NCBI RefSeq assembly: GCF_025526975.1
Contig: NW_026515675.1
Coordinates: 372,001 to 436,000, forward strand
DNA from: Fimicolochytrium jonesii
Taxonomy: Eukaryota
DNA: 64,000 nucleotides
Reading direction: 5' to 3'
Shown here: in pieces, positions 6,789-44,933 of the stretch
Position numbering within the stretch: the first letter of the stretch is position 1
Layout of the letters: the number at the start of each line of letters is the position of its first letter
Notes under the pieces: generated by a model
Told to the model about the DNA's origin: nothing
Seen by the model: only the letters and a program-made list of their open reading frames with translations
Databases searched by the model: none
Translations under genes and position numbers: made by a program

Positions 6789-7218
6789 GGTTGTGTGGGT
6801 TTCTATTTGTGAGTTTGTTGGGTGGTTCTGAAGCAGCTGACGATGTAGCGGAAAGTCTCAGCAGTGGCCAGCAGGTGAGGCTGCTGAGGACGATGCAAGG
6901 AGTGTCAGGCAATGCAAATGCAATGCGTTCATACTGAACGCGACGACCCTTGTTCTGTTCTTCTCATGAGTCTCATGTTCTTCTCAGGCTCTCCTCCTCC
7001 TCCTCCGGCCTCCTCCCTCCTCTTCTTTCCTTCGACAGAGACGGCATCCCTTCTTCTTCGCTATTGCTCAGCTTCGGCTCGCTCGCTCCCAGGTCGACCT
7101 TTTGTTTAGGCACCGTGGCTCCCCGGCCCAGCCAAGCTTCATAGCCTGGGCGCGCTGGCCGACACGCCGTCCGGACTACCTACATAGATACAGTAGAAAT
7201 AGAAAGACGGTTATCAGC

Positions 7219-18000: not shown

Positions 18001-19214
18001 GCCGTTGTCCTTGAGAGCCCTGAAGGCGAGAGCGCCATCCCTGGTCTTGATTGTGCATTCTGCACTCGAAAACTCGACTTGTGCTCCGTTCTCAGTCAGC
18101 TGGGCTACTGAGATGAGGTTCTTTTCGAGTTTGGGAACAAACCAGACGTTTCGAAGGGTGCCAGCGTGCTCCCCTTGTGTTCTAATCGAGATGGAGCCTG
18201 TTCCGATGGCTAGGACTGACCGGTTATCAGCTAGCTGGACCTGGATCTCAGTTTCCAGCGTCTTCTAGTCCTGGAGCCATTCCCTGACATGTGTCATGTG
18301 TGAGGAGGCTCCTGAATCGATAATCCAGCACTCTGGGTTGATTTTCGTGCGTTTCATAGCTGCCATGAAGAGGAACCCGGTTCCCTGGCTGGCCTGGTGT
18401 GGTTCGGCTGGATTTGCATTGTTGGCTTGAGCTAGCTCTCGTTTGAGCTTCTTGCACTCGTTCTTCCAGTGCCCTTCAATACCACAGTGGTGGCACTTTC
18501 CCTTCTTCCTGGCGAACCTGGCTGAACCCCCAGCCTCCTGCTGGTGTCCCCCGTCCCCAACAAAGGCGTTTCGAGTCGATCTGACTGGTTTTGAGTTCTC
18601 CTTGCGCCTAGCTTCTTCATTCAGAAGTCTGGCCGTCAAGAACTCCATGTCTAAGTCGTCTGCCCTGCTTTCGAGGCTTGTGATGACTTGTTCGTAGCTG
18701 TTTGGTAACCTGTATATCAAGGTCGTCATGATATCGTCTTCGGGTACTGGTGCGCCGCTAGCCTCCAGCTGTTGTGCGAGCTGTCTGACTTTGTTGATGT
18801 GGTTTGTGATCGAGTCAGACTTGTTCATAGTGATGGTAAGGAACTTTCGACGTAGGAAGAGCTTGCTGGCGAGCCCCTTTTGTTTGTGCACCTCAGCTAG
18901 CTTAGACCAGGCTTCCCAAGCCGTCTGAGCTGTATGCACATGCATAAGCTGCGTGTCGTTCAGACTGAGGCAGATGTATGCCAAAGCCCTCTTGTCCTTC
19001 CTCTCCATCGACTCCTCCTCCTCCCCGTCAGCCCCCTTTCCCTGCGACGAGCTTGCTGTAGCCGTAGCTCCTTCCTTCTCCTTCTTCCCAACTTCCATTG
19101 CCACCCAAAGTCCCTTTGCCTTCAACATCATCATCATCCTAAACTTCCATAGATGGTAGTTCTCCCTGTGAACTTATCCACCATAAGTTTCGAAGTCTCT
19201 GAGTCTCCAGCCAT
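15075..19214 (-). pseudogene. Copia gag-pol, broken by stops and frameshifts
   Basis: Fragments 18265-19137, 16879-17991, 16327-16788, 15899-16141 and 15075-15770 carry consecutive Copia domains. There is a 1-bp loss just after the gag start and a TAG at 18265. Confidence 0.9.
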
Positions 19215-19475
19215 TGTGTGTTCGAGCTAAAGTTGTCTGTTTCGGGTGTGTGGACGCGTTTTGGATGACGCTGTATTGTTGGACGCGTTTTGAGTGTCAA
19301 GTAGTGCGTATCTTTTCGAGTTGAGCACTTTGGCGCGTTTTTCGGTCGGAAACTGGTGATTTTGGAGGGATATGTGGAGTGTAGGGCGTAGGAAGCGTCC
19401 GTAGGGGGTTGGGAACGTCTTGAATGGGATTGGCGAAGACGGTTTTAGTGATGATAAAGCTCAGGGCTCATAACC

Positions 19476-20085
19476 TATTGAAACCTTAGCTGATATAGGT
19501 GTATCTGAGAGGTCCCTAAGACTGGGTTGCCGATGACTGAGGGATGTAGCTGCCCAAAGGGCAGTGTTGTGATGTAGAAGACAGTAGTGTGGCTAGAGTA
19601 GTGCGATAGAAAGTAGTGTATTGAAGAGGATAAAGTGAAGAGAGGGGATGGGCAACAGGTCTTCCTTTTATACAAATCTGGGGCTTCTTTCTTGGGGATT
19701 TAGCTATGTGCTGGGGCGTCCAAAGCACCTTTTGAGACCCCCTCAGAACGCCCAAGGCGTCTCTGAGTGCCGCAGTTAAGGTTGGTAAGGTTTTGCCAAG
19801 TCTGTGTAGCCTGCTGATGCCCTCATGGACGTCTGCCAAGTCCGCGGAGCCCGCGGAAGGTGCTGCAGGCTTCCACAAGCCCAATAAAGTCCATTCTAGC
19901 TACTACAACCCAATCACAGCTCCATACGGGCACTACTGACCGCCATGAGCTCTAAGAACATCATGAAAGCGCAGTGCTGACGCCTGGATGTCTGGGAACT
20001 GGTCCAGACATCTTCAGAGCCTTCCAAGACGCGTCCTAAGTCTTGCAGAGCCTTCTAAGTGCCGCATCTTGGTGCTATCTCAATA
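19476..20085 (-). repeat. Copia 5' LTR
   Basis: TATTG...CAATA termini; followed on the minus strand by the PBS ending at 19475. Confidence 0.93.
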
Positions 20086-20381
20086 CAAAGCTCTGTTGTT
20101 CAGAGTCAATGCCTATGTGTACCTCCGGGCATACAACCACTGAGTCTCCAGGAGTGATCACTTCCTGCTTACTCATTATGGACGGCGGCCGTAAATGCAT
20201 TTACCCTATGCGGATGTCGTTTACCATCAAGGGGTCATGGTAACACTCGTTTTGTGTAGCACGATGCAATCCCTCCACAGCTTTGACTTATGTCCAACAA
20301 TATCGTGAATGAGAACTTCTCTGCTCAATTGCAGCGATATCCGATGTTTTTCTTGAACAGAAGGTCCCATCTGGCTACAGA

Positions 20382-21849
20382 TCATTCATGGCTTTCAGCC
20401 AACTGTGCACTCTTGCATTGCAGAGCCTCAGTTCCCTTGGAGCGCTTCCACTTTCGCTTAATTGTAATGGATTCTACTTCACCAAGGACCAAGATGAAGT
20501 CGTCCAATGCAGCGCAGTCTTTCACTCGCTCGTGCGTTTCCCATGTAGTCTGCTCAGGTGGCCAACCAACCCAGTGAACGAGATACTGAGGTTTTCCATG
20601 GAGCAACCTAGTAGTATTCTTTGTCGCCTTTGACTTGGATGGGCATTGGGTTAGAGTCATCTACATTGTCGATGCGCATTGGATCTAGAGTCGCCTCGTG
20701 CCATGGCTTCAAGATATCCGTCTGGAAGACCGGGTATAAAGCGCCCATTAAAGCTGGCAGCTCCAACTCGTATGTTCCCGGGTGTGGTCCTTCCTTCTTC
20801 ACGATGAAGGGTCCAAGCCAGCTCTGTCTGAACTGGAGTGGCTTCTTGTTGAAAGCAGGGATTGTTATCCCGTCGCTGTGACGTTCACGATCGTGATACT
20901 TCGCTTGTTTGTCCTGGGCTTCCTGCAGTCTCTGATGCACTATGAGTTCAATGGATCAGTATGCCTCAGCACGCTTCTCCATCTGTACAATGAGCTCACG
21001 CCATGACTTATGCAAGAATGGGATCTACATATCGTCCATACGTTGCAACACCTTTGCATCAACTTGCCAATGCATCGGTGCCTGCGGAATTCTACCCAGA
21101 TCAACCTCGAAAGGGCAGTATCCAGTGCTGTTCTGCATACGGTTGTAGGCAAACTCCAACAACGGCAGTTTGTCAACCCAATCGTCTCCCGTTACATCAA
21201 GGTATGGTTTAAGCTTCCTCTTCAAGATAGGGAGACACCGTTCGCCCTTTCCGTCCGTCTGTTGGTGTCGTGCCGTGCTCAAGCTCTGCTTAGAGCCCAA
21301 CAACAATTGAAACACCTTCCAGAACTCTGCCAGGTAGCGTGGATCTTGATCTCCGACAATCACAGCTACAGTACCTGTATGGCGCTATGCTTGACGGAAG
21401 TAAAGCTGGGCCAACTCCTCAGCAGTTATTGGGGGTGTTGCAGGTATAAAGTACGCGTGCGATGACAGATAGTTGATGAAGACAATAGTACTGTTGTAGA
21501 ACGCATCACTATGCACCTTCCCCCCCCCCACGACCGTGTTATTGGCATCAAGACAGGATCCATACCAATCATGTGCCAGCATCGGTCGGGAATTGGGAGC
21601 AAACGAAGTAAGCCAACACGCTTACCTGTCGGCAAGCTTGCAATACAGTTCCTCGTAAAGCAGCTGGCACGTAAAACTTATCATGATACAGTAAACAATC
21701 ATGCTCATCGATTGAAAAACGTCGATCGAATGTAGACTGCTGTTCCTTTGGCTGTGACAACGCATTCTTCTGAGAAGCAAAGTACTCATCAGCCTCCAAG
21801 GTTTATACCCAATCCTCAAGCGTAACATTCCCCAAAAGAATATACTTGA
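20382..21849 (-). pseudogene. Degenerate Gypsy A integrase and chromodomain (left copy of the inverted duplication)
   Basis: Motifs HQQTDGKGER, LPLLEFAYN, WLGPF and QYLVHWVGWPPEQTTWE. Reverse complement of 43170-44637. Confidence 0.85.
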
Positions 21850-22443
21850 TGTTATGGACGACGCGTCCATACCATGCGCTTACCTCATGACAGCATCCCA
21901 ACAGTCAGTCAATGTCAATTCCCTGTCAAAACCTGACATCTGCCAAACCTCGCAGCCGCACGCAGCCGCGCTACCCCACACCTGCCACTGCCTTCATTTC
22001 TCCACGCAGCCGCACGTAGCCACACCTCCCAACACTCGGCGCTTACAAACCCTTCTCCATACTTCCCCACGTACCCGCCCACAGCCTCAGCGTAGCCACC
22101 CCATCCCCAGTCTTCTGTTTCCATACTTCCCCACGTACCCGCCCACAGCCTCAGCGTAGCCACCCCATCCCCAGTCTTCTGTTTCTATGCTTCCCCACCC
22201 TTGGCGCTTCTCTTGGCTTCCCTCTCATTCCGTACCCTTCTGCTTCCCCACGCTTCCCCAGCCTTCCCAGAAAAACATAAATAGCCGCCTCCCCTGAGCT
22301 CCCCACTTCCTGATCCCCCAGCAGATCAACACCAGTTCTTCCTAGTCTTGTTCTAGTTCTTGTTTCGGTCTGAATACCATTACCTGTCAACAACCTGCAC
22401 CACAAGTTGCCTCTATTTCCATCGGCTCCGCCCTTTCATAACA
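21850..22443 (+). repeat. Lone LTR of the Tf1-like Gypsy family B, with an internal 64-bp tandem duplication
   Basis: TGTTATG...CATAACA termini; reverse complement of 42640-43169. Unit 22057-22120 is repeated at 22121-22184. The flanks CTTGA and GTCAC do not match each other. Confidence 0.9.
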
Positions 22444-22560
22444 GTCACGCTGGGCATCTTCGATGACCCCTCAGACATGCTCCCGAATCGCGTGGCGTAG
22501 ACGAGATGGATAGCTTCACGATTTTTTTTTCTACAGGTAGCTTTCATAACAGAAGCTGCA

Positions 22561-23133
22561 ATGGAGGATCAAAAGGATACGCCAGTACAGAAGAACACAA
22601 ATCGGCCTCCTACTCCAGTTCCTGACGCAGACGATGGGATAAACAAAGTGCTTGACGCAACCATCAAGGAACGCCAGAAGAAGCCTAGAACAGCAGCTCA
22701 ACTGGAGGCTTTGAAGCGAGCGCAACAGAAACGCGCGGAGAACCTGCGGAAGCTCACCAAGATGAAAAAAGAGCAGGAAACGGAGGAGGCTAAGCGTCGC
22801 GAGTTAGAGGAGAAGGAAGCTGAGAAGGAACGAGCAAGGAAGATCATCGAGAAGTACGAGCGAGAAAAGGAGAAAGCCAAATTGAAAGCCAAGGAAGAGA
22901 GGGCCGCTAGGAAGGCGGAGCGGCATCAAATGGCAGGTGTGGAGCCAAAACAAACAGCAGCCAAGAAGAAGCCAATCGCGGCGGCACAACCCCAACAACG
23001 CGCGGCGAGTCCAGAGCTGCCGGATGATCTGGCCTACAGTAGCGAGGATGAAGCCACGACCGTCTCGGTTCCAACAGCTCAATCAATTCCAGTTGACGAG
23101 TTCATGGGGATCTTCGGGATGCGCTGGAGGTAA
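22561..23133 (+). CDS. Viral hypothetical K/E-rich coiled-coil protein (190 aa)
   Basis: Clean ORF with KKPRTAAQLEALKRAQQKRAENL followed by a charged helix; lies directly upstream of the MCP. Confidence 0.7.
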   Translation: MEDQKDTPVQKNTNRPPTPVPDADDGINKVLDATIKERQKKPRTAAQLEALKRAQQKRAENLRKLTKMKKEQETEEAKRRELEEKEAEKERARKIIEKYEREKEKAKLKAKEERAARKAERHQMAGVEPKQTAAKKKPIAAAQPQQRAASPELPDDLAYSSEDEATTVSVPTAQSIPVDEFMGIFGMRWR

Positions 23134-23207
23134 GAGTTGCAACCGTCGACTGTTCTTTTTTTTTCTTAGACAGAAAGCAAGACAGCAGGACGGCGCTAAA
23201 CATCAGC

Positions 23208-24509
23208 ATGAGCACGAACCCGGTCGTCCCGGCAAACTGGCAATATGCGTCTCGCCAGTTCTCGATGCATAGCGACGCCCTGAGTGAAAACATCGCCATC
23301 TATCGTCCGATCAAAGAAAACTTCGATTCGCGAACGAGCGCCAACAGTTTCAAAATAGTGATTGACAGTAGCTCGTCGTTCCTGCGGCCCCAAAGGTCAT
23401 ACCTGAGTGGGACCGTCTCCCTTTTCAACGCCGATGGGATGGCTCTGAAGACGGCCACTGTGTCCGACATTGGCGCAATGGGGTGCTTCAGATCAGCTTC
23501 TATTCGAATTGGCGGGAAGCTTGTAGATGAGATCAACGATTTTCCTTTGTTCTTGACTGACCTGTACCAATTCGTTGACAAGGAAAGGCGAAAGTATCTA
23601 GCGTACCATGAAGGCGCTGGCAATGCAAACGTGTTCAAGAATGACAATGGCTCGTTTACTTTTAAGCTCCACCTTCAGTTTGGGAGCATGAGGCCCCTGA
23701 ACGGGCAACCGTTGCCACTGTGCGTCTTGCCTAACCAAGCTTGTGAGCTGTCTTTGACTCTCAACACCCCCCAAAGCGCGTTCACAGATGCTCCTGCGGG
23801 TTCCTACTTCATCGTGAGCAACCTCCGCTACGTGGCCCAGCTTGTCACCCCAAGCAGCGAATATCTGAGCACCCTCTGGCGTGGCATTCAATCGGGCAAA
23901 TATTTGGAGATGGACTTCGTGTCTGTTAACCAACTTTCGAGCGTTTGCTCGGGAGCAAGTCAGAACAACTTTATTCTCCCCTTGTCCAACTCCCGTGTCA
24001 TCGGTCTCACCCACCGTTGGCGGGATGACAACACTTTTGCGACGACTACGGGAGATAAGTCGCGGATCTACACCACAGCTAACTTGAAGTCGTGGAGATA
24101 CCAGATTGGCCAGTACCGATTGCCGCTCACTGAGGACTTCGACGTAAGCGATTCAGTCATGATTGGGGCCCTCTCACTCAGCGAGAACACGTCCTATTAC
24201 TCGGAGGACATTGATCTAGACAAGTTCTACACCGATCGATTTATCATGCGGTACAGCTGGCAGAGTGGGGACGAAGATACCGAGTCATCGCTTAACCTTG
24301 TCGGCTCTGATGGTAACCTCCGCGTAATCACTACGCACGCGTTACCGGCGCCAAGCACGGCCGTGTCGTTGCTCATCGGGAAAAACCTAAGAAGGGTGTC
24401 ATACCTCCCCAGCTTAGGCAATGGGTTCTGGCCCAACAGGCTGCAGCACGGCGCAAAGGGCGATGAAAGTCCTCACGACGCGAGAAGTTGTGGCCACGTT
24501 TATCGATAA
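23208..24509 (+). CDS. Probable double-jelly-roll major capsid protein (PLV-type), C-terminus probably truncated near 24374
   Basis: Beta-rich pattern FKIVI..SFLRPQRSYL...GAMGCFRSASIRIGGKLVDEI...LPL..ELSLTL...YFIVSNLRYVAQLV...WRYQIGQYRLP matches the order of motifs I recognise in PLV/Polinton MCPs. Not confirmed by HMM. Confidence 0.7.
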   Translation: MSTNPVVPANWQYASRQFSMHSDALSENIAIYRPIKENFDSRTSANSFKIVIDSSSSFLRPQRSYLSGTVSLFNADGMALKTATVSDIGAMGCFRSASIRIGGKLVDEINDFPLFLTDLYQFVDKERRKYLAYHEGAGNANVFKNDNGSFTFKLHLQFGSMRPLNGQPLPLCVLPNQACELSLTLNTPQSAFTDAPAGSYFIVSNLRYVAQLVTPSSEYLSTLWRGIQSGKYLEMDFVSVNQLSSVCSGASQNNFILPLSNSRVIGLTHRWRDDNTFATTTGDKSRIYTTANLKSWRYQIGQYRLPLTEDFDVSDSVMIGALSLSENTSYYSEDIDLDKFYTDRFIMRYSWQSGDEDTESSLNLVGSDGNLRVITTHALPAPSTAVSLLIGKNLRRVSYLPSLGNGFWPNRLQHGAKGDESPHDARSCGHVYR

Positions 24510-24585
24510 AATCAACCTCGTCGGCACCACCATGAAAGCATGGTGGCGCAAAGCGAGAAGCAAACAAGATTCATATTTCACATAG
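24463..24585 (+). CDS. Putative 40-aa viral micro-ORF
   Basis: MKVLTTREVVATFIDKINLVGTTMKAWWRKARSKQDSYFT*. Its ATG overlaps the TGA of an upstream basic frame (ATGA) and it ends 5 bp from the convergent gene. Confidence 0.4.
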   Translation: MKVLTTREVVATFIDKINLVGTTMKAWWRKARSKQDSYFT

Positions 24586-24590
24586 ACACA

Positions 24591-26144
24591 TTACTTACCT
24601 TTCCTCGTCGAGGTCTGTATGTATCCAGGGTCGTAACTCAACTTTTCTGGCGCTTGAGCTGTTCTCGCAGACCGCTTCGTTGCAGGGGCCTTGCCTTTCC
24701 CCTTGCCCTTTGTAGCTTTCCGTAGCGGCACCGCGGGAGTGTCTTCGTTCGCCTCCACCGTTGGCTCTGGCCCGAAAACTTGGGTCTGCGTGGGATTAGG
24801 CGACCATCTTAGTCCGCTGGGACCAGGAGCAGAAGGCTGCGGTTCGGGAGAGAACTGAGGCGCTACGTCGGGTGAGATAGACATAGGCGAAGCCGAGTTC
24901 CCGCTTGTATGGCCATAGCGTTCCGGCGACGAGTTTAGGGAGCTCTGGCCAAAGATAGAATCGAAGGAAGGAAGGGATGGGGTTGGGGAACCTCTCGGTT
25001 GCCACTGCGTTTGGATCGGAGGTGGTACTGGACGTGTAGAAGCGGAGGCTGGAGTGGCAGAAGGTGAGTATTGCGTTCCCATGTCGGCGACCTCTTGAGT
25101 CCTCTGTTTCTTTAGAGTCTCAATCAAGGTTCGCATAGCCGCTATCTCGGTGATAGCCACCGCAGAAATCGTCTCAACCTGCTTCACGAGACGCAACATC
25201 TCGTCCGGACTGATTGTCGCCGGAAGGCTGCTTTCTTGGAAGCCCATCGACACGAGGATGTTGCGGAATGTGCCCATCGTAGCCGCGGATATATTCCCGA
25301 GCTGAGCCTCTTGGCCGCGAAGCTGCTGCTGGAGGGTTTCGTTTCCAAAACGAAGCTGATCCATGAACGTCTGGAAGCGCCCCCCGTTTGCAAAGATGAG
25401 ATCCAGAGTCGTCCGATCAAGGTCAGGAAGATCGGTTGCTGATGCAACGGAGCGCATGTCGCGGACCGCGTGCTTTGGAGGAGGGAGAACCGGGCTCGTC
25501 TGTGTACCGAAGGTCACACTGGAGACCTTTCCGAGCCGTCCCACCTCGTCGGTCAAGCTTTCGCCGTCATTCCGTTTCGTGACGACTGGGTTGGAACCGA
25601 GGATAGGCTTTCCTGCGTTGCTGTTCGCGTTCTCGGGCAGATGCGCGTTGTCTCCACGCCGAACGTTGCTGGTCACATCCCCCATGAATTGGTTCTGTTG
25701 AGTTCGAACCCAGCCCGGCTGATGAAAGATGGTTGTGGAACCGTCAGCCCCCGTCTGGGATGCCACGGATCTAGGTAGGGCGATGGTTCTGCCTCGACGC
25801 GGGAAGAGATTATTGGCATCGAGCTCGTCAAAGTAGGCTTGCTTTGCTCGCTCCCGTTCCACCGCGTGAAGCGCATCAACGGCGTCCCGAGCGACTTTAC
25901 TCTGGTAAGGAGCTGCCCGAAGCGCGATTTGTTCTTTGATGGCCGGGCGCCTGTCAAAGACGCCTTTGGCAACTCCCTTTCCTGGGACATGGAATCCTGT
26001 GTGGAAGAGCCTGTTCTACGTCTCGCCAGGTCTACCGCGAATGTATGCGTATTGTCTCGCATGGATGTTGAGGATTGGCTGATTTGGGTAAGTGAAAGCG
26101 CCAGCGCTTGGCAGGCTAGCGTTCCTGTCGTCGTACTCAACCAT
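24591..26144 (-). pseudogene. Viral hypothetical protein (~517 aa) with one in-frame TAG
   Basis: ATG at 26144 (MVEYDDRN...) is in frame with the 423-aa ORF 24591-25862; the only interruption is TAG at 26018-26016. Central helical region, Pro/Ser-rich stretch and basic C-terminus. Confidence 0.65.
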
Positions 26145-26213
26145 CCCTGGTTTAATTTTTCTTCTATAACCTTGATCAAGAAGAAAAGAAAACGCAGGCC
26201 GCTTGCAGCACCG

Positions 26214-26510
26214 ATGGGGTTCTTTGACAAAGCACGAAGCAAAGCGAACACTTTCTTTTCGAAAGTCCCAGGTCACATTCAGAAGGCTCGGGGATTCCTC
26301 GATCAAGCGGTCTCGGGCGTCAGGACCGGCCACAAGCTCTTAACTCATGTCCGCCAGGGAATCGAAACCAATGATATCTTCGACGGCAAGGTGAAAGAAG
26401 CTTCACGTAAGGTAGGCTCCTTTGCTGATCTAGGCTTGAAAAAAGTTGACGCCTACCACAAAGGAGGCGATCAATTCCTCGGGCATCTGCAGAACATTCC
26501 TCTGGCCTGA
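26214..26510 (+). CDS. Small amphipathic viral protein (98 aa), candidate membrane-active virion protein
   Basis: MGFFDKARSKANTFFSKVPGHIQKARGFLDQAVSG...; Gly2 followed by basic amphipathic helices. Confidence 0.6.
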   Translation: MGFFDKARSKANTFFSKVPGHIQKARGFLDQAVSGVRTGHKLLTHVRQGIETNDIFDGKVKEASRKVGSFADLGLKKVDAYHKGGDQFLGHLQNIPLA

Positions 26511-26577
26511 GCAGATCTCATATCGCTCTTTTTTCCATCGCTTGTCATTAATCTAGGAATCAACCGCTTCCTTCGAG

Positions 26578-29500
26578 ATGAACATCAACTCTCGAACGAG
26601 CAGCGGCATAAGGACGCTGGATAGGCTGAACCTGGTAGCGCCGACCGTTAGCAGTTCAATCAAAGCTGCTGGCGACAATGTCTCCATGACGGGGTTCGAC
26701 TCAGCCGCGTTTCAGGCTCTATCAAACGAGAATGGCCCTCTTGAAGTGAATCGTGTAGAGGCCACCGAGCCGCTGGAATCGAAGACCGAAGCCGGCCTGG
26801 CAACCGTCAGCCTCGTTCATGATGAGACCCTCCAAGTCACTGATGGTAAACTTGGCACAACTCCCGTGCCAAAAGTTGAGGTCATCGCGCCTCTAGATGA
26901 GACGGACAACCGCCTTACACTGAAATGGACGGATCCCTTAACGGTCACGGATGAGGGCCTGACGCTCTCGTATGACCAAGATACCTTGAAGGTCAATGAT
27001 GGGGAGCTCTCCGTAGTCTTCCCTGCCCCGGAAACACTTCAGCCTCCTCTGATTCGAGACAGGGATGGCATCGAATTGCGGCACGATTCTACGCTCGTTG
27101 TAACGGCGAATGGAGACTTGTCCGTCCCAAAGGAACCGCTAAAGCAACCCTTAACGCGAGACGGGTCAGGCGTAGGGTTGAAATTGAATACGGATGACTT
27201 CGCCGTGGACGCCACTGGCGCGTTGGCCATCGTCCCAACAAACTATGAAGCTCCTCTGCATGAATCTGCCACGGCAGACAAGACCGTGTCCTTGCACACG
27301 GATGACAGTCCTCACGTCATCGGGGACGCTCTCAGCGTCGTACCTGAAGCATTATCAGCTCCCTTGACGTGGGAGGATGGGACACTTACGGTGCGTCTAG
27401 GGAAGGGTCTGAAGGTCAATGATGATGAAGAGCTGGAGACCAACATTGAGCAGGTCGTCGTTGGGCGCGGGGCCATCAGTAGTGATAAAGCTGGAAGCCT
27501 GGCGCTCGAAGATGTGCTGTCAATGGGCTACTCGTCCATCTCTGAGCTATTCAACGATGACGTTGATGTTGATGCCAGTGTTATTCGGCTCAAGACCTCC
27601 GATGATCTACAACAGACGGGAAACAAACTCGCTATACGATCCCAGGGACTAGGCAGAGTCCCGTTCTACAATGGGATCTCAGGGGTTCACCTATAATGAG
27701 ACTCTGAACGAGCTCCATGCGCCGCACATATACGTCAACTCTAACTTTTCACCTGCCGACACAGAAGTGCCCACAAAAGCGTATGTGGAACAGCTATACC
27801 AAAGTGATGCGGGCTCTCCCATCAACATCTCCGGGGTGAGCAACGGACGCAGAACCATCGACCTGCGAACAGACGCTAACCTAGCGGTTGAGAATCAAGT
27901 CCTCAGCGTCAATCCGTCTCCTTTGGTGGACAACAAAGGGGTCCGAGTGATTGACGGTAAGATCGGTATCGGACTCACGTTCCAGCCGGGAAACGGCGGT
28001 CTCAAGATAGAGAACCAGAACCAGGTCAAACTCGCACCTAATGTCAGCGGAGCCATCACTTTTGACGGCAATAACACGTTTTCGGAGAAGCTCACCGCCA
28101 GCCAGGGTGTAAAGAGGGTCGAGAATGATCTCCAGCTGGACCTACAAGCGGGAGACTCGACAGTCACTGTGAGCGGCAACACGGTGAAGGGAAACTACCA
28201 GGCTAACACCGGTGTCCGCCTCACAGGGAACACCATCTCAGGAGCGTACACAGCGGGAAACAACGTTAGCATAAGCGGCGCTACAATCAGCTGTACTTAC
28301 CAGCCCGAACCCGAAACTCCTACAGTCATCACTGGCGCACTTCCCATCATCGTCACAGGAGCTGACAAGGAATACAATATCTCTAAACAGCCGCTGGTAA
28401 TATCTGGAGGAGCAGGGATCGTGGTGGCGGGTTCTGAGGGTACCGGTTACGTAATCAGCAGCGTTCAGCCTTATAAGCAGAAGAAGCAGGACTCTGACCC
28501 GGAGGAGAACATGGAGGAGTCTGATCCGTTTGCAGAGAGTGACCCGTTGACCGCTTCTGGATCCTCTCCCGTTGTCAGCGTGACTGGCCCCCTCGGGTTT
28601 CTTCTCAGCAGTGGTGCGTCGCTCATAGGAGGGCCTTTGGCCAGTGGTGTGGCTGTTGCGCCTACCTCGGCCTTCGGCGCTCTTGGGGCTCTCGCGGGAG
28701 CTGTTGGGGGAACAACCATTGTAGGCGGCTTTGCATCTGTTTTTGGACGCGAACGAAAGAATAAGACAGACGCTAGCGGGAATCCGATCATAGACGCCAA
28801 CAACAACCCGGTGCTAGAAGACGGCTCGCAAGTTATCATTTCGATGCTGCCGAAACCCGACGACACCTCCTGTGATGTTACAAGGTTATTATTTGACACT
28901 CCCAGTTCTTGTTCTTACCGCTCAGTGCTCTTTGAGGTCCCTCAACAAGCCGTCAATCTCGACCTTCTCAAACAGTACCACATCGCGGCCATCAAGCCTC
29001 AGATAGATCTCAAGTTCGACAAAACGGGAAGTCTTCCCTATGCTCAGCTTAGCGGCGTACCGGACCTTTCCGTCTACGAGAAGAGGCTCACTTTCGCTCC
29101 TTCCCCTGTGCTGACGCGGGCAGCGGACACGGTGACATTCGACTCGACCAAGATCACCTCTCTCGGAACATTGGCCGGTCTGACACTTAGTGGAGCTTTA
29201 AGTGGGACGACAGCAACGTTCTCTGGGGCAATATCTTCACCTACCCTCAGCAACTATCTCCTCTCAGCCACAGCTGCCACCTCCTACCAACCGCTGAATG
29301 CTAAGCTTTCGACGATCGCTGCAAGTACAGCCGCGGCTTCGTACTTTTTGGTGGGAGACGGCGGCGCATATGCCTCGACCAGCCCTCTGAACGCCAGGTC
29401 AGCCCTTGGACTTGGCTCTTTGTCTTTCAAATCATCGCTGGACTTAGCAGCGGACGTCGGGACAAGTGTCTTGCCGGAGCCACGGATAGATGCATTGATA

Positions 29501-32500
29501 GCTAGGAAGACCTATGTGGATTCCCTGGTGGTTACCGCCGGCGCTGGCCTTACGAAGGCGGGCACAGCACTCAGTGTCAACGACGCGCAGCCTGGCATCA
29601 CCAGCCTTGGGACCCTGTCTAGTCTGACGACAAACGGTCTTTCCGTGCTCGGTAACAGTCGGACGCAGGGTTGCATTGTGCAGGGGTCCCAGCCGGCGCT
29701 GAATCTATCGAGTATGGCAACCGGAGGGGCTAGCTGGCAGTTATATTCGACCGTAGCCGGTGATTCACTGGGTCCCGGGTTCCTTTCGCTCTTGAATACA
29801 ACTGGAGGCGGGTCTACGCCGGTCCTCAACGTCAATGGGAGTGATCTGACACTCACTATCGCCAGGGCTCTAACAGTGAGTGGAGCGGTGACTATTCAGG
29901 CAACTCCAACAGCGGCTACTCACGCTGCATCAAAGGGATACGTTGACGGATTGATCAACACCACACAGACGGGAGCGCAACCGCTCAATGGCAAGCTTAG
30001 CACTATATCCAATGCAACTGCCGCTGCTAGCTACTTCCTTGTAGGAGATGGGACAAACTTCATCTCGACCAGTCCTGTCGCTTCTAGAAGTGCGCTCGGG
30101 CTTGGTTCTTTGGCCTTGAAGAGCATTGTCACGCTCACATCAGATGTGACTGGTATCTTGCCTCTTGCGAACCTAGATACACAGGTAAGTACCAAGGCAT
30201 ATGTTGATGCTCAGACCGTCACAGCTGGGAATAATCTGTCAAAGGCCGGGACTGTGATATCTCTCAATCCAGATGTACGGTTGAACAGTCTACGTTTAAC
30301 TTCCACCGACTTGAACTCGTCTGCGCTTCTTGTCAACGGTATCGGTCAGTTTGGACAGGTCCAAGCGGCTGACTTGATTGTCTCTGGAAACAGCTACCTG
30401 CAAGATGTGACGGTTAATGCTGGTTTGAACGTAATTGGTAGTTCCAGCCTAAGCGGACTTAATGTCACAAGTGTATTGAATGTCAGCAGGACAGCCACCG
30501 TGTCAACACCAACATCGGGGGCACATGCGGCGACGAAAGCCTACGTTGATGGTCTTTACACTGCTGGGACGGGCCTGACACGTGCTGGAAACGCCTTCAG
30601 CGTGAATGTGGCTCAGCCTCAGATCACATCAGTTGGCACATTATCGTCGCTGGCTGTAAGCGGAGCGGTGACTGTCGCGGGAACAGCCAATTCGGCCGTG
30701 CCGACAGCGGGGGCCATGCAAGTTGCTGGTGGGCTAGGGGTGGGGAAAAATCTAGTTGTTGCGGGGCAGAGCAACATCATTGGCTATGATTCAAACGTAG
30801 ATGCATATTCATCGTTCAATGTCCCTTTGACTGTCTGTACACAGGTGTCTAATGCAGCGGTGGGGGCTCCGACCCCTGTTCTGCAACTTGCTCAGGCTGG
30901 GACTCCCGCTTCCAAGGTCGCGGGATCTGCGACTTTCAACATGTCAAGGTATGCACTTGCCGGTGTACAGCCCAAAACACAATTGGATCTCTTCCTGAGC
31001 GATACCGACTGGGGGGTGGGAAAGACCGCGCTAACCCTGCGTGGCGACGGAACCGTTCTGATCCCTTCGAACGCTCTAAGTGTGTCTGTACCTGTCACGA
31101 GCAGCTACACAACAGGATACTTCTTGCAGCCGTCGCTCACCGCTGGGTCTCTCACTCAGTTCATCCATGGTGTCGGCATGAGTACATATAATTCAGCGTG
31201 CTTTGACTTCAACTACGCAGGAGCAGGTAACTCCGGTAACTATCTCGGACTGGGTCACTACGGCGCGAACGGATTACTCCGCGTCTATGGGAACGGGGTT
31301 GTCCAATGTACCTCTAGCGAGGACTCAAGTGGACCCGGTACTGGTGCTTTGCAAGTGGTAGGAGGGGTGGGTGTCTCCAAAAGTCTATTTGCTGGAGGAA
31401 CATCGGCGACGTCAAGTCATACATTGCAACTCAACTCCACAACATCCGATGTTCTCAAGATCCAGAGTCTTTCGGCTTTGGGGTTTTCCACTATTGGCTT
31501 CTTGAACAACACGGGAACGGTAGTGGGCGCTTTTGGTTATGCTGGAACCGGTACAAGTGCTCCCAATGCTGGAAACTTTTTCCTCTATTCCGGGTCAGCG
31601 GCAAACTTTGTGATCAATAGCAATGTTCCAAGTGTGCAGATTCTATCCACGGCAGACTCCTCATCTTCGACATCAGGTGCATTTCAAGTCAAAGGTGGAG
31701 CCGGGTTTGCAGGCAATGTTAACGTAGGAAAGGACTTGACCGTTGCGGGGACACTTTACAGCAATATCACCTCAGCAGGACCGATTGTTGCATCGCATCT
31801 TGGAGCACCTAACTTAGCAGCCGGAAGTTTCACGACTTTACAGCTCGGCACAGGGGCATCTACAAACAATATGGCAAGGTTGTACTTCAACTACGCCGGC
31901 CCAGGTCTTGCAGCAAACACGCTGGGGTTGGGGCTCTGGAACTCTCCACAAGGTCTTGTCGTTGATGGAACGGGGAAGGTTGCTATCCCAACCGGTAACT
32001 TGCAAGTTAACGGAAACCTCCCTATCATCAGCGGAAACGACACAATCGGACCACTGTCAATCGACCCCAATTTCACATCCAATAACTATGTTAGGGTCTG
32101 GGACGATTTACGTGTTGTTGGAGACTTCTCTGTATACAACTCCGCTGAAGCCGTTGCTTGGCTCAAAGTTGCGTCGAGCGATGGTAGCGTTGTACTGAAA
32201 GGGTCCTCGGATACCTCGGCAGTTGGGTCGGGCGCTTTGCAGGTATCCGGGGGCGCATCTGTGGCAAAATCTCTGTATGTTGGGCCAAATCTCAATGTAG
32301 CCGGCGACCTCCTCACTCCCGCCTTGACGTCTACAAGCACTCTAGTTGTGCATCCCACGACACCGGCAACAAACTACTCCTGGAACGGATACAGCGTGAC
32401 TTACTCCTCGGAGTATACCTACAACAACTCAAACGGAATAGATGGGCTTACGGGACATGGTTGTGACTGTTACATGTATGCATCCTACGCATCGAGATTG

Positions 32501-33406
32501 CGGTGGGCAACAAGTAGCACTTCAACAGGCACACTCAGCCTCGATTCAACAGCGCAAAGTCTGCATTTCTCCCTCCTCCGGCTCCCGACCGCAATTGCCA
32601 TGGCTCAAGTCAAACTAACTGCGTATCTGCCTGATGGCGTGTTGATGCCAACCACGTTCACTGTAGTGGCGCGGACAAGCGAATCGTCGGTCAAGACCAT
32701 CGCCACGTTCTCCAACATCAGCGCGTCTAGTTGGTTGATGGACGGGAATTCGTTTTCGTTCTCAAATACCACTGCCTATCCCGTGTGGGGGATTTCGTGG
32801 CAGTACGCAAATCAGACAACAGCAGGAGGGGTCGCCATACGAGGGATACAGTGGAATCAATTGATTCCAAAGGCCGCCTTGGTGAATGCTCAGGCGGATA
32901 CGCTGAATGCGTCTACTGTGACTGTATCAGGCACGACCACCACTAATAGCCTGGTTGCGAACTCAGCCCTCTGTAAAGGTGACTTGACTTGTAGCACGAA
33001 CATGTATTGCAACACCCTTGTGCAGAGCTTTGTCGCCATCAAAGACTGGTTGGCGGATGTCCTTGTGCCTAATGCCAATGGTTACACCAACACTAGCCCC
33101 AGTCCTATCGGGTGGATCCCAAAAATGTCGGCATGCGTTGCTCACTGCATGTTCTCCGCCGCTCCAAATGTTATGAACGCTCGAATCACATGTGGTGTAC
33201 AAATCCTCGATGGAGCTACGGTTGTGGCAGCGAAGAGTTTCTCAATCTATGGGACCATAAATAATTACAACGTTCAGACCCCCTTCTGCTTCCAGCTGCC
33301 CATTCTCTTCAACAGCACCTCGACCGGGCTCACCGTAAAGCTCAGCATTCCGACCTCGATGACGTTCAGTAATTTGTACGTTTTGTTCTACACACAGGTC
33401 TTCTAG
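26578..33406 (+). CDS. Giant fibre/spike protein (~2270 aa), split by a 1-nt frameshift at the G run 27682-27685
   Basis: The 372-aa and 1911-aa ORFs join as YNGISG|FTYNETLNEL if one G is removed. Contains adenovirus-shaft-like repeats (APL..LTL...L.V....L.V), T/SKAYVD-type repeats, four GA(L/M/F)QVxGG repeats and a discoidin-like C-terminal module. Confidence 0.78.
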
Positions 33407-33851
33407 TCGCTAAATGGTACACGTGTCGCGGCGAAGTCTACTGATAAGTCGCCGATAGTTTCGTGTGAGGTGCGTGTGTGTGTGCCGTGGGATAGGGCCG
33501 TGATCATTAGCTGTCGTGGCGCGGTCGTACCATAGCGGCGGCGTTTGGATGATGGAGCCGACGGTTTGGGTTCCAGCCCCGGGTTTCGGGATGTAGACGC
33601 GGCGGTCCCGTAGGGTTGTGCAGCAGGTTTGGGTGCGCTTTTATCGATAACGGTGCATCGCCAAAACGTCTTCGCACCAGGGGCGTAACTGGGGCGTACT
33701 AGATACATGCAGAATGTAATAGATACGTTTGACGTAACAGATATGCTACAGGGGTGTAACTGGGACGTAATGATTATATAGTACATAATAAGCGTAATAC
33801 AGCACAGTTACATAAACAATACGCCACAGTTACATAACCAGAAAATACCAG

Positions 33852-33895
33852 TGTCGTAGTGCAGGTGTAATTTAAATTACACCTGCACTACGACA
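33852..33895. repeat. Perfect 44-bp palindrome (candidate hairpin telomere or resolution site)
   Basis: TGTCGTAGTGCAGGTGTAATTT|AAATTACACCTGCACTACGACA, 22-bp arms with no spacer. The palindrome is certain; the function is inferred. Confidence 0.95.
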
Positions 33896-34653
33896 ATCGG
33901 GTACGTGGAAAGAAGTTCAAGTCTTTGTTGGACATCAAAGATGCATATCACCGCCTCTTGGTTTGCAAAGCTGATAGAGACAAAACAGCGTTTCAAACGC
34001 GGTTTGGTCATTTTGAGTACTTGGTTATGCCGTTTGGATTCCCAAATGCACTGGCAACATTTCACCGGTTAACCAATAAGATGTTGGGCAAGATGTATGA
34101 TGCGTATGTCATATCTTACCTGGACGATATCTTGATCTTCTCGGAAACAGCCAAGGAGCATATCGCTCATGCCGAGAGTGTTTTGGCTGTTCTTGCCGAG
34201 CATAAACTTTATGTCAAGCCATGCAAGTGCAAATGGATGCAGAAAGAGCTTGAATTCTGCGGCCACATCCTGGGGGAGGATACAATGGCCATTACTCCCT
34301 TGAATTTAAAGTTTGAAAGTTTGCACGTCCTACCAAACAGAAAGAGGTTGACAAAGTACCTGAGTCAATACGTCGATCGTTATGCATACATTGCGTATCC
34401 ATTGACAGAGCTACAGTTGGGCAATAGGCCATGGCACTGGGGCGATGTTGAGGAAACAGCTTTTGTTAAGCTGAAGGAAGCTATTATTACAGCTCCTACA
34501 CTCGTGTCTTACGACCCAAAGCGAGATTTATACATGTTTACGGATGCATCAGGTTTTTGCAATAGGAGGATGGCTCGCGCAGCCGGCGGATCCAGTGGAG
34601 CATTACCCATCACCGTTGCCTACCTCTGTGAAGGGATTTAAAAATCTGCCACC
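33896..34653 (+). pseudogene. Gypsy A reverse transcriptase (C-terminal part) and start of RNase H
   Basis: [34 protein letters not shown]. Confidence 0.88.
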
Positions 34654-36855
34654 CATTTGTTCAGCCCACAATAGTCGATACACATACGGAGACTGCCATC
34701 CTTTTTCTTAGCAAATAACACTGCAGCGCCCCAGGAGCTCTGCGAGTGCTGAATCCAACCGCGCTCAAGCATGCGGGTAACCTTCTCATTCAGCTCTTTG
34801 AGTTGCGCTCATATGCCATAAAGGATTAAAGCTCGATATGGAAGTTATCCTCTCCTCTATCAGGTGGCAACTCTGCGGGCTCGACCAACAAACTATCGAC
34901 ATACTTCTCTAACGTTGGATATAGAAGGTGATCCGATGGCATGCCCAAATCAACCTTCTGTCTTGTAAGTTCGATCATTTGAACCTCTGGCTCTGGTTCG
35001 GCGCGATCGCGCTCATTTGCAGGGACATAAGCTGCTGACGCATTCACTGCAGCTTCTATGTCCATAGCGTATGCCATGTAACACTTCCCATACACCTTCT
35101 TTTGAGATAAGCGAGTGAACTTCTTATATGTTACAACTCCTTCACTTGAGTCTTCTTGTTCAGGCATCGCTGCCTTGAAACGTTTGGACTTCTTTCTGAT
35201 GTCAAAGGACCGCAGATCGGCTGCATTACAGGACAATTTGGATTCCCACTTGCTAGTTACCTGTCTGGCAACCAGGGTGTGTTCAACTTCATCTGCACGG
35301 AAGCATAAAACCGGAATCTCAGCCTCTATGTGCTCGAAACGAACGTCATCAAGCATATAGATCCATGGTAATCCGAGGATAACGTCCACCCGCAGAGGAG
35401 CAACCAAAAATGGAAGCTTTCCTCGTGAATAGTGCCGTGGATCCCCCCATAACTGAAAATCGCCACAAAATAGCTTGTTGGCGTTGAATGTATGGCCGTC
35501 GTCACCCCAGGTGACATGAATGGGTGTTTTGGGGTTATAGGTTTGAAAACCGTGTTTTGACACCCATCCCTGTCATATCATAAGTGTTGTGCGTCCTGTA
35601 TCGATCAGAATGTGACAAAACTTGCCATTCAACTTGCCATGAACCAGAAATGCACATCGAGCGATCAACGCATCGGGTTGCAGTTGCAGTGCTTCAGGCC
35701 TCGGAAAAACAGTTTCAGTCTCGTCTGGCCGGCACAGACGCGCCCCCAAAGCAGACGTATTGCTACAATCAACCAGTATACCAACCGCAGACTCAGGGTG
35801 TATAGCCTCAAGTTCCTCTTCAATGGACACCATTGCACAATGAGACAAATAAGCAGTGTCTTTATTACACGTCTCTACTGAAAACCCTTTTTCTGACCAG
35901 CATCCCAACGCGGCTTATCCTTAGCCTTGTCGGATTTCTTGTCCTTCTTCTTTTTCGGACAATCTCGCGCACGGTGCCCCATCTCACCACAATTGGAACA
36001 CTTCATGTTTGAGAGGTCTGGGCGTGCGTAAGGCTTAGCAGCTTCCGCCTTCTTAGCTTTCCCCCCCTTCTTGCCCGCAGTACCCACGGCAGAAGAGAAG
36101 TTAGCACGTTTAGGCGCACTACTACCACAAGCAACTGCTTGTTAGCATCGGTCCCCTTATCGGCGAGACGACGCACAGCAAAAGAACTGAGCGCACGATC
36201 CATCAAACGAATCAACGGATATGTGAGCAAAGGGTGTTGCTCCCTATAATCGACCATCGTATGCAACAACGACTGGGCAACTTGTAGCCGACGGTATTGG
36301 TCTTGTCGCGAGTAAGAGCGCGAAGAAACAGGTTATTCAAATCGTCAGGAGTGATAACCTCCAGGTTGCGCTGTGCTTCGGCAACGATACGTTTGAACTC
36401 TGTCGCATAAGAATCCATCGACTTATGGAAAGTCATACGATGCAGAGCTTTGAGCGCGTTGGTTTTCGCGGTTGTAGGATAAAAGGCTAACTTGAAAGCC
36501 GTTTCGAAATCCTCTTTCCGCATGTCAAGCCTGCATGCGGTATCGAACCAGGCACGTGCGTCGCCTTCGAGCGAGCCAGATACCTTCTGCATGTACTTAA
36601 AGTCCCAATCGGATGGCCAAAAGTAAGCATGACATCTGTATGCTTCTGCAAAAACGACGAGAGCTGCCTCGCGCTTTTTGCCGTTGAAAGGATGCTGCGA
36701 GATCCATGTCCCATGGTGCCTACGCTGCTTGATGTAGAACGCTCCACAGATCCATCCTGCAGCAGGGCATCATGTTGCATAGCAGAATTACGCTCCAACG
36801 TAGCGTGCAAGCGATTTTCACCCCAAGGAACATCAGGCTCAACAGGACCAGGCTA
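34654..36855 (-). pseudogene. Inverted Gypsy gag-protease-RT N-terminal segment
   Basis: LEGDARAWF gag, CSNCGEMGHRARDC knuckle, ILIDTG protease, DVILGLPW and [13 protein letters not shown], all on the minus strand. Confidence 0.82.
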
Positions 36856-37285
36856 GAGCATTACCCATCACCGTTGCCTACCTCAGTAAAGGGATTTAAG
36901 AATCTGCCACCATTAAAGCCGATAGCTTTCTTTAGACGGAAGATGCAGTCTGCTGAAACACGTTACCCCGTGCATGAACAGGAGCTATTAGCTCTGGTTA
37001 AGATATGCAAGGCGAATAGGCATTACTTGCAGGATTGGATAAATGATCGCCCGTTTCGAGCGTTCACCGATCACGCTAGTTTGGTCAGGCTGCAGACACA
37101 GCCCTTCCTTAGCCATCGCCAAGCACGGTGGGTTGAATTCCTGCAACAGTTCAAATTTGATATTGAATATCAACCTGGTCGTTGGAACACCGTCCCTGAT
37201 GTGTTGAGTCGTAATCCTTATTACGCCCCATGCTGCGCCGAGTGTAACAAGCGAGCTGAGATTGCTGCAGCCATGGGAATGTCCG
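36856..37285 (+). pseudogene. Gypsy A RNase H, interrupted by the family B element
   Basis: AETRYPVHEQELLA, FTDHASL, RQARWVEFLQQF, DVLSR. Confidence 0.88.
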
Positions 37286-37290
37286 TCAAG

Positions 37291-37820
37291 TGTTATGAAT
37301 GGGCGGAGCCGATGGAAATAGAGGCGACTTGTGGTGCAGGTTGTTGACAGGTAATGGTATTCAGTCCGAAACAAGAACTAGAACAAGACTAGGAAGAACT
37401 GGGGTTGATCTGCTGGGGGATCAGGAAGTGGGGAGCTCAGGGGAGGCGGCTATTTATGTTTTCCTGGGAAGGCTGGGGAAGCGTGGGGAAGCAGAAGGGT
37501 ACGGAATGAGAGGGAAGCCAAGAGAAGCGCCAAGGGTGGGGAAGCATAGAAACAGAAGACTGGGGATGGGGTGGCTACGCTGAGGCTGTGGGCGGGTACG
37601 TGGGGAAGTATGGAGAAGGGTTTGTGAGCGCCGAGTGTTGGGAGGTGTGGCTACGTGCGGCTGCGTGGAGAAATGAAGGCAGTGGCAGGTGTGGGGTAGC
37701 GCGGCTGCGTGCGGCTGCGAGGTTTGGCAGATGTCAGGTTTTGACAGGGAATTGACATTGACTGACTGTTGGGATGCTGTCATGAGGTAAGCGCATGGTA
37801 TGGACGCGTCGTCCATAACA
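37291..37820 (-). repeat. Gypsy B 3' LTR
   Basis: TGTTATG...CATAACA; about 7 substitutions versus the 5' LTR by eye. Confidence 0.93.
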
Positions 37821-42639: not shown

Positions 42640-43169
42640 TGTTATGAATGGGCGGAGCCGATGGAAATAGAGGCGACTTGTGGTGCAGGTTGTTGACAGG
42701 TAATGGTATTCAGACCGAAACAAGAACTAGAACAAGACTAGGAAGAACTGGTGTTGATCTGCTGGGGGATCAGGAAGTGGGGAGCTCAGGGGAGGCGGCT
42801 ATTTATGTTTTTCTGGGAAGGCCGGGGAAGCGTGGGGAAGCAGAAGGGTACGGAATGAGAGGGAAGCCAAGAGAAGCGCCAAGGGTGGGGAAGCATAGAA
42901 ACAGAAGACTGGGGATGGGGTGGCTACGCTGAGGCTGTGGGCGGGTACATGGGGAAGTATGGAGAAGGGTTTGTAAGCGCCGAGTGTTGGGAGGTGTGGC
43001 TACGTGCGGCTGCGTGGAGAAATGAAGGCAGTGGCAGGTGTGGGGTAGCGCGGCTGCGTGCGGCTGCAAGGTTTGGCAGATGTCAGGTTTTGACAGGGAA
43101 TTGACATTGACTGACTGTTGGGATGCTGTCATGAGGTAAGCGCATGGTATGGACGCGTCGTCCATAACA
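42640..43169 (-). repeat. Gypsy B 5' LTR
   Basis: TGTTATG...CATAACA; lies upstream of the gag ATG at 42588. Confidence 0.93.
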
Positions 43170-43174
43170 TCAAG

Positions 43175-44637: not shown

Positions 44638-44933
44638 TCTGTAGCCGGATGGGACCTTCTGTTCAAGAAAAACATCGGATATCGCTGCAATTGAGCAGAG
44701 AAGTTCTCATTCACGATATTGTTGGACATAAGTCAAAGCTGTGGAGGGATTGCATCGTGCTACACAAAACGAGTGTTACCATGACCCCTTCATGGTAAAC
44801 GACATCCGCATAGGGTAAATGCATTTACGGCCGCCATCCATAATGAGTAAGCAGGAAGTGATCACTCCTGGAGACTCAGTGGTTGTATGCCCGGAGGTAC
44901 ACATAGGCATTGACTCTGAACAACAGAGCTTTG

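What the first reader, a model, noticed from the sequence alone, without database searches (positions are those of the whole stretch)
22444..33895. Endogenous capsid-encoding dsDNA virus (Polinton-like/MELD type) hidden in a fungal retrotransposon nest
Seen: 11.5 kb of intronless, tightly packed ORFs unlike the spliced host genes or LTR elements around them. They comprise a coiled-coil ORF, a beta-rich ~390-430-aa ORF, a divergent gene pair and a giant fibre, followed by a repeat/palindrome terminus. Known: PLVs, Polintons and virophages encode a double-jelly-roll MCP of this size, and dsDNA viruses of fungi are little described. From memory, some chytrid 'MELD virus' sequences have been deposited; this needs verifying. 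Inference: this is the morphogenesis half of a linear virus whose replication/packaging half was cut off at the LTR. Only a few lesions are visible, suggesting fairly recent integration.
Basis: partly seen in the sequence, partly recalled or inferred. Interest (0 to 1): 0.92.

Follow-up and report, generated by a model that had tools for sequence, protein, structure and literature searches.

The report
Broken Polinton-like virus in chytrid fungus
The capsid-and-fibre half of a small DNA virus, with a perfect palindrome at its end, lies among retrotransposons in what is likely a chytrid fungus chromosome; this copy is broken, and viruses of this kind have already been reported from chytrid genomes.

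Summary
Observation confirmed. Five intronless genes cover 91% of 22446-33895. The 388-residue protein at 23208 is predicted to fold as a double jelly-roll capsid (pLDDT 90; Z 25 to PBCV-1 Vp54, 11-13% identity). The fibre passes Pfam's avian adenovirus fibre cut-off. A perfect 44-bp palindrome abuts a Ty3 reverse transcriptase cut mid-domain. Close named relatives are all from chytrids, with the same neighbours. The copy is defective: the capsid lacks about 19 C-terminal residues, one gene has a stop, the fibre is split, and the left part is lost at an LTR with mismatched flanks. ATPase, penton, replicase and integrase are absent here, and no complete relative could be fetched. Chytrid Polinton-like (MELD) viruses are in print (Starrett 2021; Bellas 2021, 2026), as are palindromic ends in a protist's PLVs (2026 preprint). 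The scan noted such ends earlier in other chytrid DNA. What is less described: this capsid family differs from the published S. punctatus group and spans several chytrid genera, and all five genes have a T-tract just before the start codon. Verdict: new member of a known kind.

The parts
21847..22443 (+). Lone Ty3 LTR at the left break (host retroelement, not viral); end of an inverted duplicate of 42638-47623
   Evidence: Left flank CTTGA equals the target-site duplication of the intact Ty3 at 37288-43172; right flank GTCAC does not. 18856-22134 is 99% complementary to 42885-46163.
22446..22500 (+). 3' stub of a gene cut by the left break; likely the end of the penton gene (inferred)
   Evidence: Frame ends at 22500. 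In Geranomyces P0005 a stretch that by eye resembles a penton C-terminus precedes the coiled-coil and capsid homologues (pentons seen). Not tested statistically.
22561..23133 (+). 190-aa charged coiled-coil protein, function unknown
   Evidence: 41% over 66 aa to the part of P0005 that precedes its capsid; no Pfam family above cut-off.
23208..24371 (+). [quoted passage not shown]
   Evidence: AlphaFold2 with 72 sequences, pLDDT 90.3, pTM 0.84; Foldseek PBCV-1 Vp54 E 1.9e-13, TM 0.63; VIA Z 25.1, rmsd 3.1, 329 aligned; full-length homologues 407-415 aa.
24372..24466 (+). Likely 3' remnant of a small basic gene whose start was deleted together with the capsid's end (inferred)
   Evidence: Basic reading frame ending at 24466 begins where capsid homology stops. 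No homologue was searched.
24591..26144 (-). About 517-codon gene of unknown function with one premature stop (26016-26018)
   Evidence: 85% to F. jonesii P0092 (519 aa), 54% to Geranomyces P0094; no Pfam hit; no usable Atlas hit.
26214..26510 (+). 98-aa basic protein starting Met-Gly; candidate membrane-penetration protein in the manner of adenovirus protein VI (inferred, weak)
   Evidence: Hydrophobic moment of residues 2-37 reached by 229 of 10,000 shuffles; no Pfam hit. The likeness to protein VI is recalled.
26578..33406 (+). Giant fibre gene (about 2,280 codons) with adenovirus-like shaft repeats, split by a frame change near 27680
   Evidence: Pfam Av_adeno_fibre E 2.6e-13, 50.1 bits (cut-off 22.7); Adeno_shaft 34.9 bits (cut-off 30); continuous in P0096 (87%) and P0024.
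33670..33851 (.). Sub-terminal short repeats (likely part of the terminal inverted repeat or origin)
   Evidence: Direct repeats of 21 and 22 nt and imperfect inverted repeats; 12 YGTAM-type words in 33670-33900 against about 1.2 per equal length elsewhere in the element (motif chosen after inspection).
33852..33895 (.). Perfect 44-bp palindrome forming the surviving viral end
   Evidence: Arms of 22 nt, no spacer; beyond chance; directly followed by a Ty3 reverse transcriptase that starts mid-domain.
33896..37287 (.). Rearranged Ty3 element (host flank): RT-RNase H on +, its gag-protease-RT start inverted at 34654-36855
   Evidence: Pfam RVT_1, RT_RNaseH, Retrotrans_gag; RT resumes at residue 348 of the reference pol, while the inverted piece ends at 330.

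Best explanation
This is the defective, capsid-and-fibre half of a likely Polinton-like virus that lies among retrotransposons in a chromosome of a likely Spizellomycetales chytrid and ends in a perfect palindrome. Shown: a double jelly-roll capsid gene, an adenovirus-like fibre gene, three further intronless genes, a palindromic end joined to the middle of a Ty3 reverse transcriptase, three internal lesions, and loss of everything left of 22446 at an LTR. Inferred for the intact parent: a linear genome of roughly 15-25 kb is packed into an icosahedral capsid; long trimeric vertex fibres bind the wall-less zoospore; the small Met-Gly protein helps cross the membrane; the genome integrates in the nucleus; after excision the terminal palindromes fold back and prime copying (about 50% for this step). 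A T-tract before each gene would act as a shared expression signal. After integration, an LTR-centred rearrangement that made the 0.7%-diverged inverted duplicate removed the packaging, replication and integration genes.
For: Fold. Fibre. Of 15 close capsid homologues, 10 carry names and all 10 are chytrid proteins (53-62% identity); 77 homologues in the wider search. In a quick tree of 66 of 72 rows (6 under 350 aa dropped) the window protein is in a 10-row clade with SH-aLRT 100 whose named members are Gaertneriomyces, Spizellomyces and Thoreauomyces. Gene order is shared: coiled coil next to capsid in Geranomyces, capsid and fibre on one Powellomyces contig, and the F. jonesii homologues of the minus gene and fibre have consecutive locus numbers on a 293,611-nt contig. 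Homologues sit both on 11-25 kb contigs and on contigs over 1 Mb. Host context: a Dicer gene and Copia/Ty3 elements. Ends. Published parallels.
Against: No ATPase, penton, replicase or integrase is in the window, and no complete relative could be fetched, so the gene set that separates PLVs from Polintons is unseen. Best structural matches are giant-virus capsids; PLV structures hardly figure among the matches. Only one end survives, so terminal inverted repeats and a target-site duplication cannot be tested. The two RT pieces do not rejoin cleanly: 17 codons are missing. The junctions were not checked against reads. The first fold with 14 sequences resolved only one barrel (pLDDT 59.8).
Confidence: 0.87

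Rival explanations
1. A relic of a fungal giant virus (Mycodnaviridae or other Nucleocytoviricota).
For: Top fold matches are PBCV-1, faustovirus and iridovirus capsids. Giant-virus capsid genes are reported in F. jonesii and G. semiglobifer.
Against: Only 8-16% identity in those structural matches; Pfam Capsid_N scores 15.1 bits against a cut-off of 24, and 3 of 72 family members match at E<=0.01, whereas that paper required E<1e-10. A terminus lies 9.5 kb from the capsid gene; adenovirus-like fibre; no giant-virus gene in the window.
Confidence: 0.03
2. A bona fide Polinton (protein-primed polymerase plus retroviral-type integrase) or a virophage rather than a PLV; same life style, other label.
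For: The lost half is unseen. One Powellomyces MELD virus is described with a PolB, and the S. punctatus PLV is listed with pPolB.
Against: Virophage capsids score lower (Sputnik Z 18.8, mavirus Z 17.2 against 25.1) and are longer (over 500 aa against 407-417). Terminal palindromes go preferentially with non-pPolB replication genes in Halocafeteria.
Confidence: 0.06
3. An assembly chimera: free viral DNA wrongly joined to a repeat-rich contig.
For: Both junctions lie at repeats, and an inverted duplicate starts at the left one. No reads could be laid.
Against: A free replicating virus would not carry broken capsid and fibre genes. The duplicate differs at about 25 sites in 3.7 kb plus a 64-nt tandem copy. 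Relatives are embedded in contigs over 1 Mb in other chytrids.
Confidence: 0.03
4. Domesticated host genes with a cellular jelly-roll protein.
For: GC content like the host's; homologues are annotated as fungal hypothetical proteins.
Against: Three of five genes are disrupted; many partial homologues per genome; capsid, fibre and terminus occur together.
Confidence: 0.01

Closest known systems
Powellomyces chytrid fungus MELD viruses 1-6 (Starrett et al. 2021, PMC8502044; taxids)
   Same: Host order Spizellomycetales; adenovirus-like vertex fibre; mid-size linear dsDNA; the figure legend lists a protein similar to adenovirus VI among MELD genes. P. hirtus proteins are among the capsid homologues (P0013, P0014 at 60-62%; P0024 with capsid and fibre on a 22,789-nt contig).
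   Different: Those were assembled as whole genomes with replicases; this is an integrated, truncated, decayed copy. Whether it is the same lineage as one of the six is likely but not shown: no hit carried a MELD name, and the paper's maps and table could not be read.
S. punctatus group of PLVs (Bellas and Sommaruga 2021, PMC7805220)
   Same: PLV integrated in a Spizellomycetales genome, double jelly-roll capsid.
   Different: That group's capsids (554 aa in one listed lake genome) match SPPG_00925. The S. punctatus homologues of the window's capsid are SPPG_02195, 07203 and 08453 (417 aa type, 32%). So this is a second capsid family, in line with chytrid ATPases falling in two places. No chitinase was detected here.
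Palindrome-ended endogenous virophages and PLV subtype 4 of Halocafeteria seosinensis (bioRxiv 10.64898/2026.07.28.741278)
   Same: Palindrome at the very end (52 nt there, 44 here), nesting in transposon-rich DNA, proposed hairpin priming.
   Different: Protist host; complete elements with both ends and target-site duplications; no sequence comparison was made.
Mycodnaviridae (PMC13533422)
   Same: dsDNA viruses with double jelly-roll capsids integrated in zoosporic fungi.
   Different: Giant genomes up to 350 kb with Nucleocytoviricota core genes; capsids detected at E<1e-10 with the giant-virus profile, far stronger than this protein's weak Pfam match.

Membership tests
Polinton-like viruses (PLV, Aquintoviricetes; includes MELD) | [quoted passage not shown] | tested here: met
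   (Z 25.1, rmsd 3.1, 329 aligned).
Polinton-like viruses (PLV, Aquintoviricetes; includes MELD) | Single jelly-roll penton | tested here: inconclusive
   Only a stub of under 20 codons at the left break; by-eye likeness of the matching region in P0005 to pentons.
Polinton-like viruses (PLV, Aquintoviricetes; includes MELD) | A32/FtsK-like packaging ATPase | not testable with these tools
   Left part lost; no host genome held; no complete relative fetched.
Polinton-like viruses (PLV, Aquintoviricetes; includes MELD) | Mid-size linear genome bounded by terminal inverted repeats | tested here: inconclusive
   One end with repeats and palindrome; the other end lost; several relatives on contigs of 11-25 kb, whose DNA was not seen.
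Polinton-like viruses (PLV, Aquintoviricetes; includes MELD) | Capsid groups with a described PLV capsid cluster | tested here: inconclusive
   Differs from the SPPG_00925 type; a MELD virus protein appears at rank 32 of BFVD with 8% identity; published PLV profiles were not available.
Polintons/Mavericks (Polintoviricetes) | Protein-primed PolB and retroviral-type integrase (definition) | not testable with these tools
   Replication and integration genes are not in the surviving part.
Virophages (Maveriviricetes) | Virophage-type capsid | tested here: inconclusive
   No virophage family among the Pfam matches of 72 members; mavirus and Sputnik capsids rank below PBCV-1.
Mycodnaviridae / Nucleocytoviricota | Capsid recognised by giant-virus capsid profiles | tested here: not met
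   Pfam Capsid_N 15.1 bits, cut-off 24; best family member E 3.6e-4. The NCVOG0022 profile itself was not available.
Adenoviridae | Hexon of about 900 aa with towers | tested here: not met
   Capsid family 407-417 aa; hexon Z 13-15. Only the fibre shaft is adenovirus-like.

The most novel reading that the evidence does not exclude
The family is an order-wide, still active small dsDNA virus of chytrids that unites hairpin-primed ends with an adenovirus-like entry kit (fibre, protein VI-like peptide) and expresses each late gene from a shared T-tract signal, possibly a splice acceptor for a common leader as in adenoviruses. Its hosts F. jonesii and G. semiglobifer also hold giant-virus capsid relics, so intact copies may be inducible satellites of fungal giant viruses and could yield particles of a small dsDNA virus from cultured fungi.
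Probability: 0.15. Interest if true: 0.85.

Novelty: new member of a known kind. Interest (0 to 1): 0.45.

Why it matters
A 2026 preprint states that no dsDNA virus had been isolated from fungi, and the large screen of endogenous PLVs left fungi out. This locus points to a capsid family present, unannotated as viral, in named genomes of at least seven chytrid genera (Gaertneriomyces, Geranomyces, Powellomyces, Phlyctochytrium, Spizellomyces, Thoreauomyces, Borealophlyctis), with F. jonesii holding close copies of two other genes. These are cultured fungi, so particle production and hairpin priming become testable. The locus itself is a dead fragment, and the kind is known, which caps the interest.

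Tried and rejected
Sequence searches alone did not identify the capsid: no PDB sequence hit under E 0.4. A shallow alignment gave a poor model. No host genome was held, so other copies and read depth were not examined. No sequencing run was listed, which is no evidence either way. Attempts to fetch related DNA failed: viral contigs by capsid alignment, single distant homologues, palindrome core and a capsid motif (one search found 1 coding match but returned no locus); metagenome contigs (0 of 112 candidates; 6 loci, 0 of 6 related by tblastn or HMM). The Atlas gave no usable hit for the minus-strand gene and no answer for the capsid or the 98-aa protein. No fold or PDB hit was obtained for the fibre tip. 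A tyrosine-recombinase site was considered for the palindrome (TAA-N6-TTA core, recalled likeness to Xer sites); kept as a minor option, since recombination would be expected to leave half-sites rather than a whole palindrome at the junction. A clean insertion into the Ty3 RT with a recoverable target-site duplication was rejected: 17 codons are missing between the pieces. That the lone giant-virus capsids reported in F. jonesii and G. semiglobifer are this family was considered and judged unlikely from the E<1e-10 threshold; the supplement could not be read. The careful tree did not finish; only the quick tree is cited. No complex prediction was run.
Full report
Observation. The region 22446-33895 holds five intronless genes that cover 91% of it, between a Ty3 LTR on the left and a Ty3 reverse transcriptase on the right. 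The flanks are Copia and Ty3 elements and host genes, among them a Dicer. GC is 53.3% against 54.1% in host genes; the CpG ratio is 0.96 against 0.58-0.89 in three retroelements. The 44-bp palindrome at 33852-33895 is the longest in the window and exceeds all 100 shuffles.

Capsid. Pfam gave only a sub-threshold Capsid_N match (E 0.017) and PDB sequence searches nothing. A homology search found 15 close relatives, 10 of them named and all 10 from chytrids; the wider search found 77. With 72 aligned sequences the first 388 residues folded at pLDDT 90.3; with 14 only one barrel was resolved. The model matches PBCV-1 Vp54 over its whole length (Foldseek E 1.9e-13; VIA Z 25.1) at 11-13% identity. 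Complete relatives have 19-20 further residues, and the alignment to Vp54 stops at residue 414 of 436, so the window's copy likely lacks the last strand of the second barrel.

Other genes. The 372-aa ORF at 26578 passes two adenovirus fibre cut-offs. It and the 1911-aa ORF are one protein in F. jonesii P0096 (87%) and P. hirtus P0024. The minus-strand gene matches a 519-aa F. jonesii protein at 85% and has one premature stop; its function is unknown. The 98-aa Met-Gly protein is modestly amphipathic (229 of 10,000 shuffles); its likeness to adenovirus protein VI is recalled, not tested. The coiled-coil gene precedes the capsid also in Geranomyces.

Host and spread. Named homologues come from Spizellomycetales and one Rhizophlyctidales genus (lineages checked for three species, the others recalled). 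They lie on contigs of 11-25 kb and on contigs over 1 Mb, several per genome. In a quick tree (66 of 72 rows; 6 short rows dropped) the window protein lies in a 10-row clade with support 100. I looked up names for 30 of the homologues; none is named as a virus.

Ends and age. The left LTR has the 5' flank of the intact Ty3 at 37288-43172 (CTTGA on both of that element's sides) but another 3' flank. It closes an inverted duplicate of 42638-47623 that differs at about 25 sites in its last 3.7 kb. So the virus was cut by an LTR-centred rearrangement rather than ending there. On the right the palindrome abuts the RT at reference residue 348; the RT's start lies inverted 0.8 kb further on and ends at residue 330, so the insertion site cannot be rebuilt. 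One nonsense change in 10,386 coding sites gives about 0.4% neutral divergence (95% range 0.01-2%, assuming a transition bias of 4), in line with LTR pairs of 98-98.5% identity nearby. Integration was likely recent.

Expression signal. A T-rich pyrimidine tract starts 39-58 nt before the ATG of 5 of 5 genes; 114 of 2,276 random 70-nt windows meet the same criterion, which was set after inspection, and two of the five share one intergenic stretch. Four other tracts in the element are not before a start. In two genes the tract runs straight into CAG or TAG like a splice acceptor, in a third TAG follows about 18 nt later. Because the tracts also face both genes of the divergent pair, a terminator role is less likely than a promoter or acceptor role. 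No RNA data could be had.

Mechanism. Shown: capsid fold, fibre, palindromic end, integration context, lesions. Inferred from PLV biology: penton, packaging ATPase, replicase and integrase lay in the lost half; fibred icosahedral particles infect wall-less zoospores; the genome persists integrated. Hairpin priming follows the model proposed for Halocafeteria elements, whose authors also offer accidental annealing as an alternative; I put it near 50%. Dependence on a giant virus is open; the only hint is the giant-virus capsid relics reported in two host species of close relatives.

Comparison. It works like a PLV, and one defining feature was met while none of the PLV features failed; three could not be settled. 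Six Powellomyces MELD viruses with adenovirus-like fibres, an S. punctatus PLV and PLV ATPases in numerous chytrid genomes are in print. The capsid family differs from the S. punctatus group. I found no paper that describes this family across chytrids; the library lacks most subscription journals.

What I read. PMC8502044: passages and section 3.4; its supplement was cut, so Table S1 and the genome maps, which bear on membership, were not seen. PMC7805220: passages and supplement rows. bioRxiv 2026.06.19.733378: passages and section 7. PMC13533422: passages and section 6; 6 of 10 supplements unreadable. Passages only: bioRxiv 2026.07.28.741278, 2025.04.19.649669, 2023.10.16.562556, PMC10120064, PMC11161782, PMC11258239 (not relevant). 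PMC11426020 was not held. Earlier scan notes led me to the Halocafeteria preprint.

Verdict. Interest 0.45: the copy is dead and the kind is in print, but the family is widespread in cultured fungi and offers a direct test for small dsDNA virus particles in fungi.

Noticed in passing
window 22522, 23153, 26156, 26526 (+) and 26192 (-): T-rich pyrimidine tract 39-58 nt before the start codon of all five viral genes, two running directly into a splice-acceptor-like AG; the divergent pair shares a near-palindromic intergenic stretch centred on 26173-26180.
   Followed up: partly
window 6970-12780: A Dicer-like gene (helicase, dimerisation, PAZ, two RNase III domains) in a single 1936-codon stop-to-stop frame, about 10 kb from the virus, at the edge of the retrotransposon nest.
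   Followed up: no
window 17394-22445 and 42638-47623: 5-kb inverted duplication bracketing the virus; about 99% alike over 18856-22445 and 83-98% beyond, so likely two events; a 64-nt tandem copy in the left LTR at 22056-22183.
   Followed up: partly
window 34598-34653 and 36856-36911: A 56-nt direct repeat brackets an inverted gag-protease-RT start inside the Ty3 RNase H region, a likely template-switch scar.
   Followed up: partly
window 22444-22445: The left LTR is followed by the same two bases as the 5' LTR of the intact Ty3 before viral sequence begins; could be an unprocessed cDNA end or chance (1 in 16).
   Followed up: no
window 24463-24585: Small ORF of 40 codons on + between the capsid break and the minus-strand gene; may be a further viral gene.
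   Followed up: no
protein P0089 (S. punctatus SPPG_07203): Capsid homologue annotated as fused to an HNH/AP2-like endonuclease stretch; probably two adjacent viral genes joined by gene prediction, as with P0005 and P0024.
   Followed up: no
window 58218-60284: 688-codon open frame with no Pfam match.
   Followed up: no
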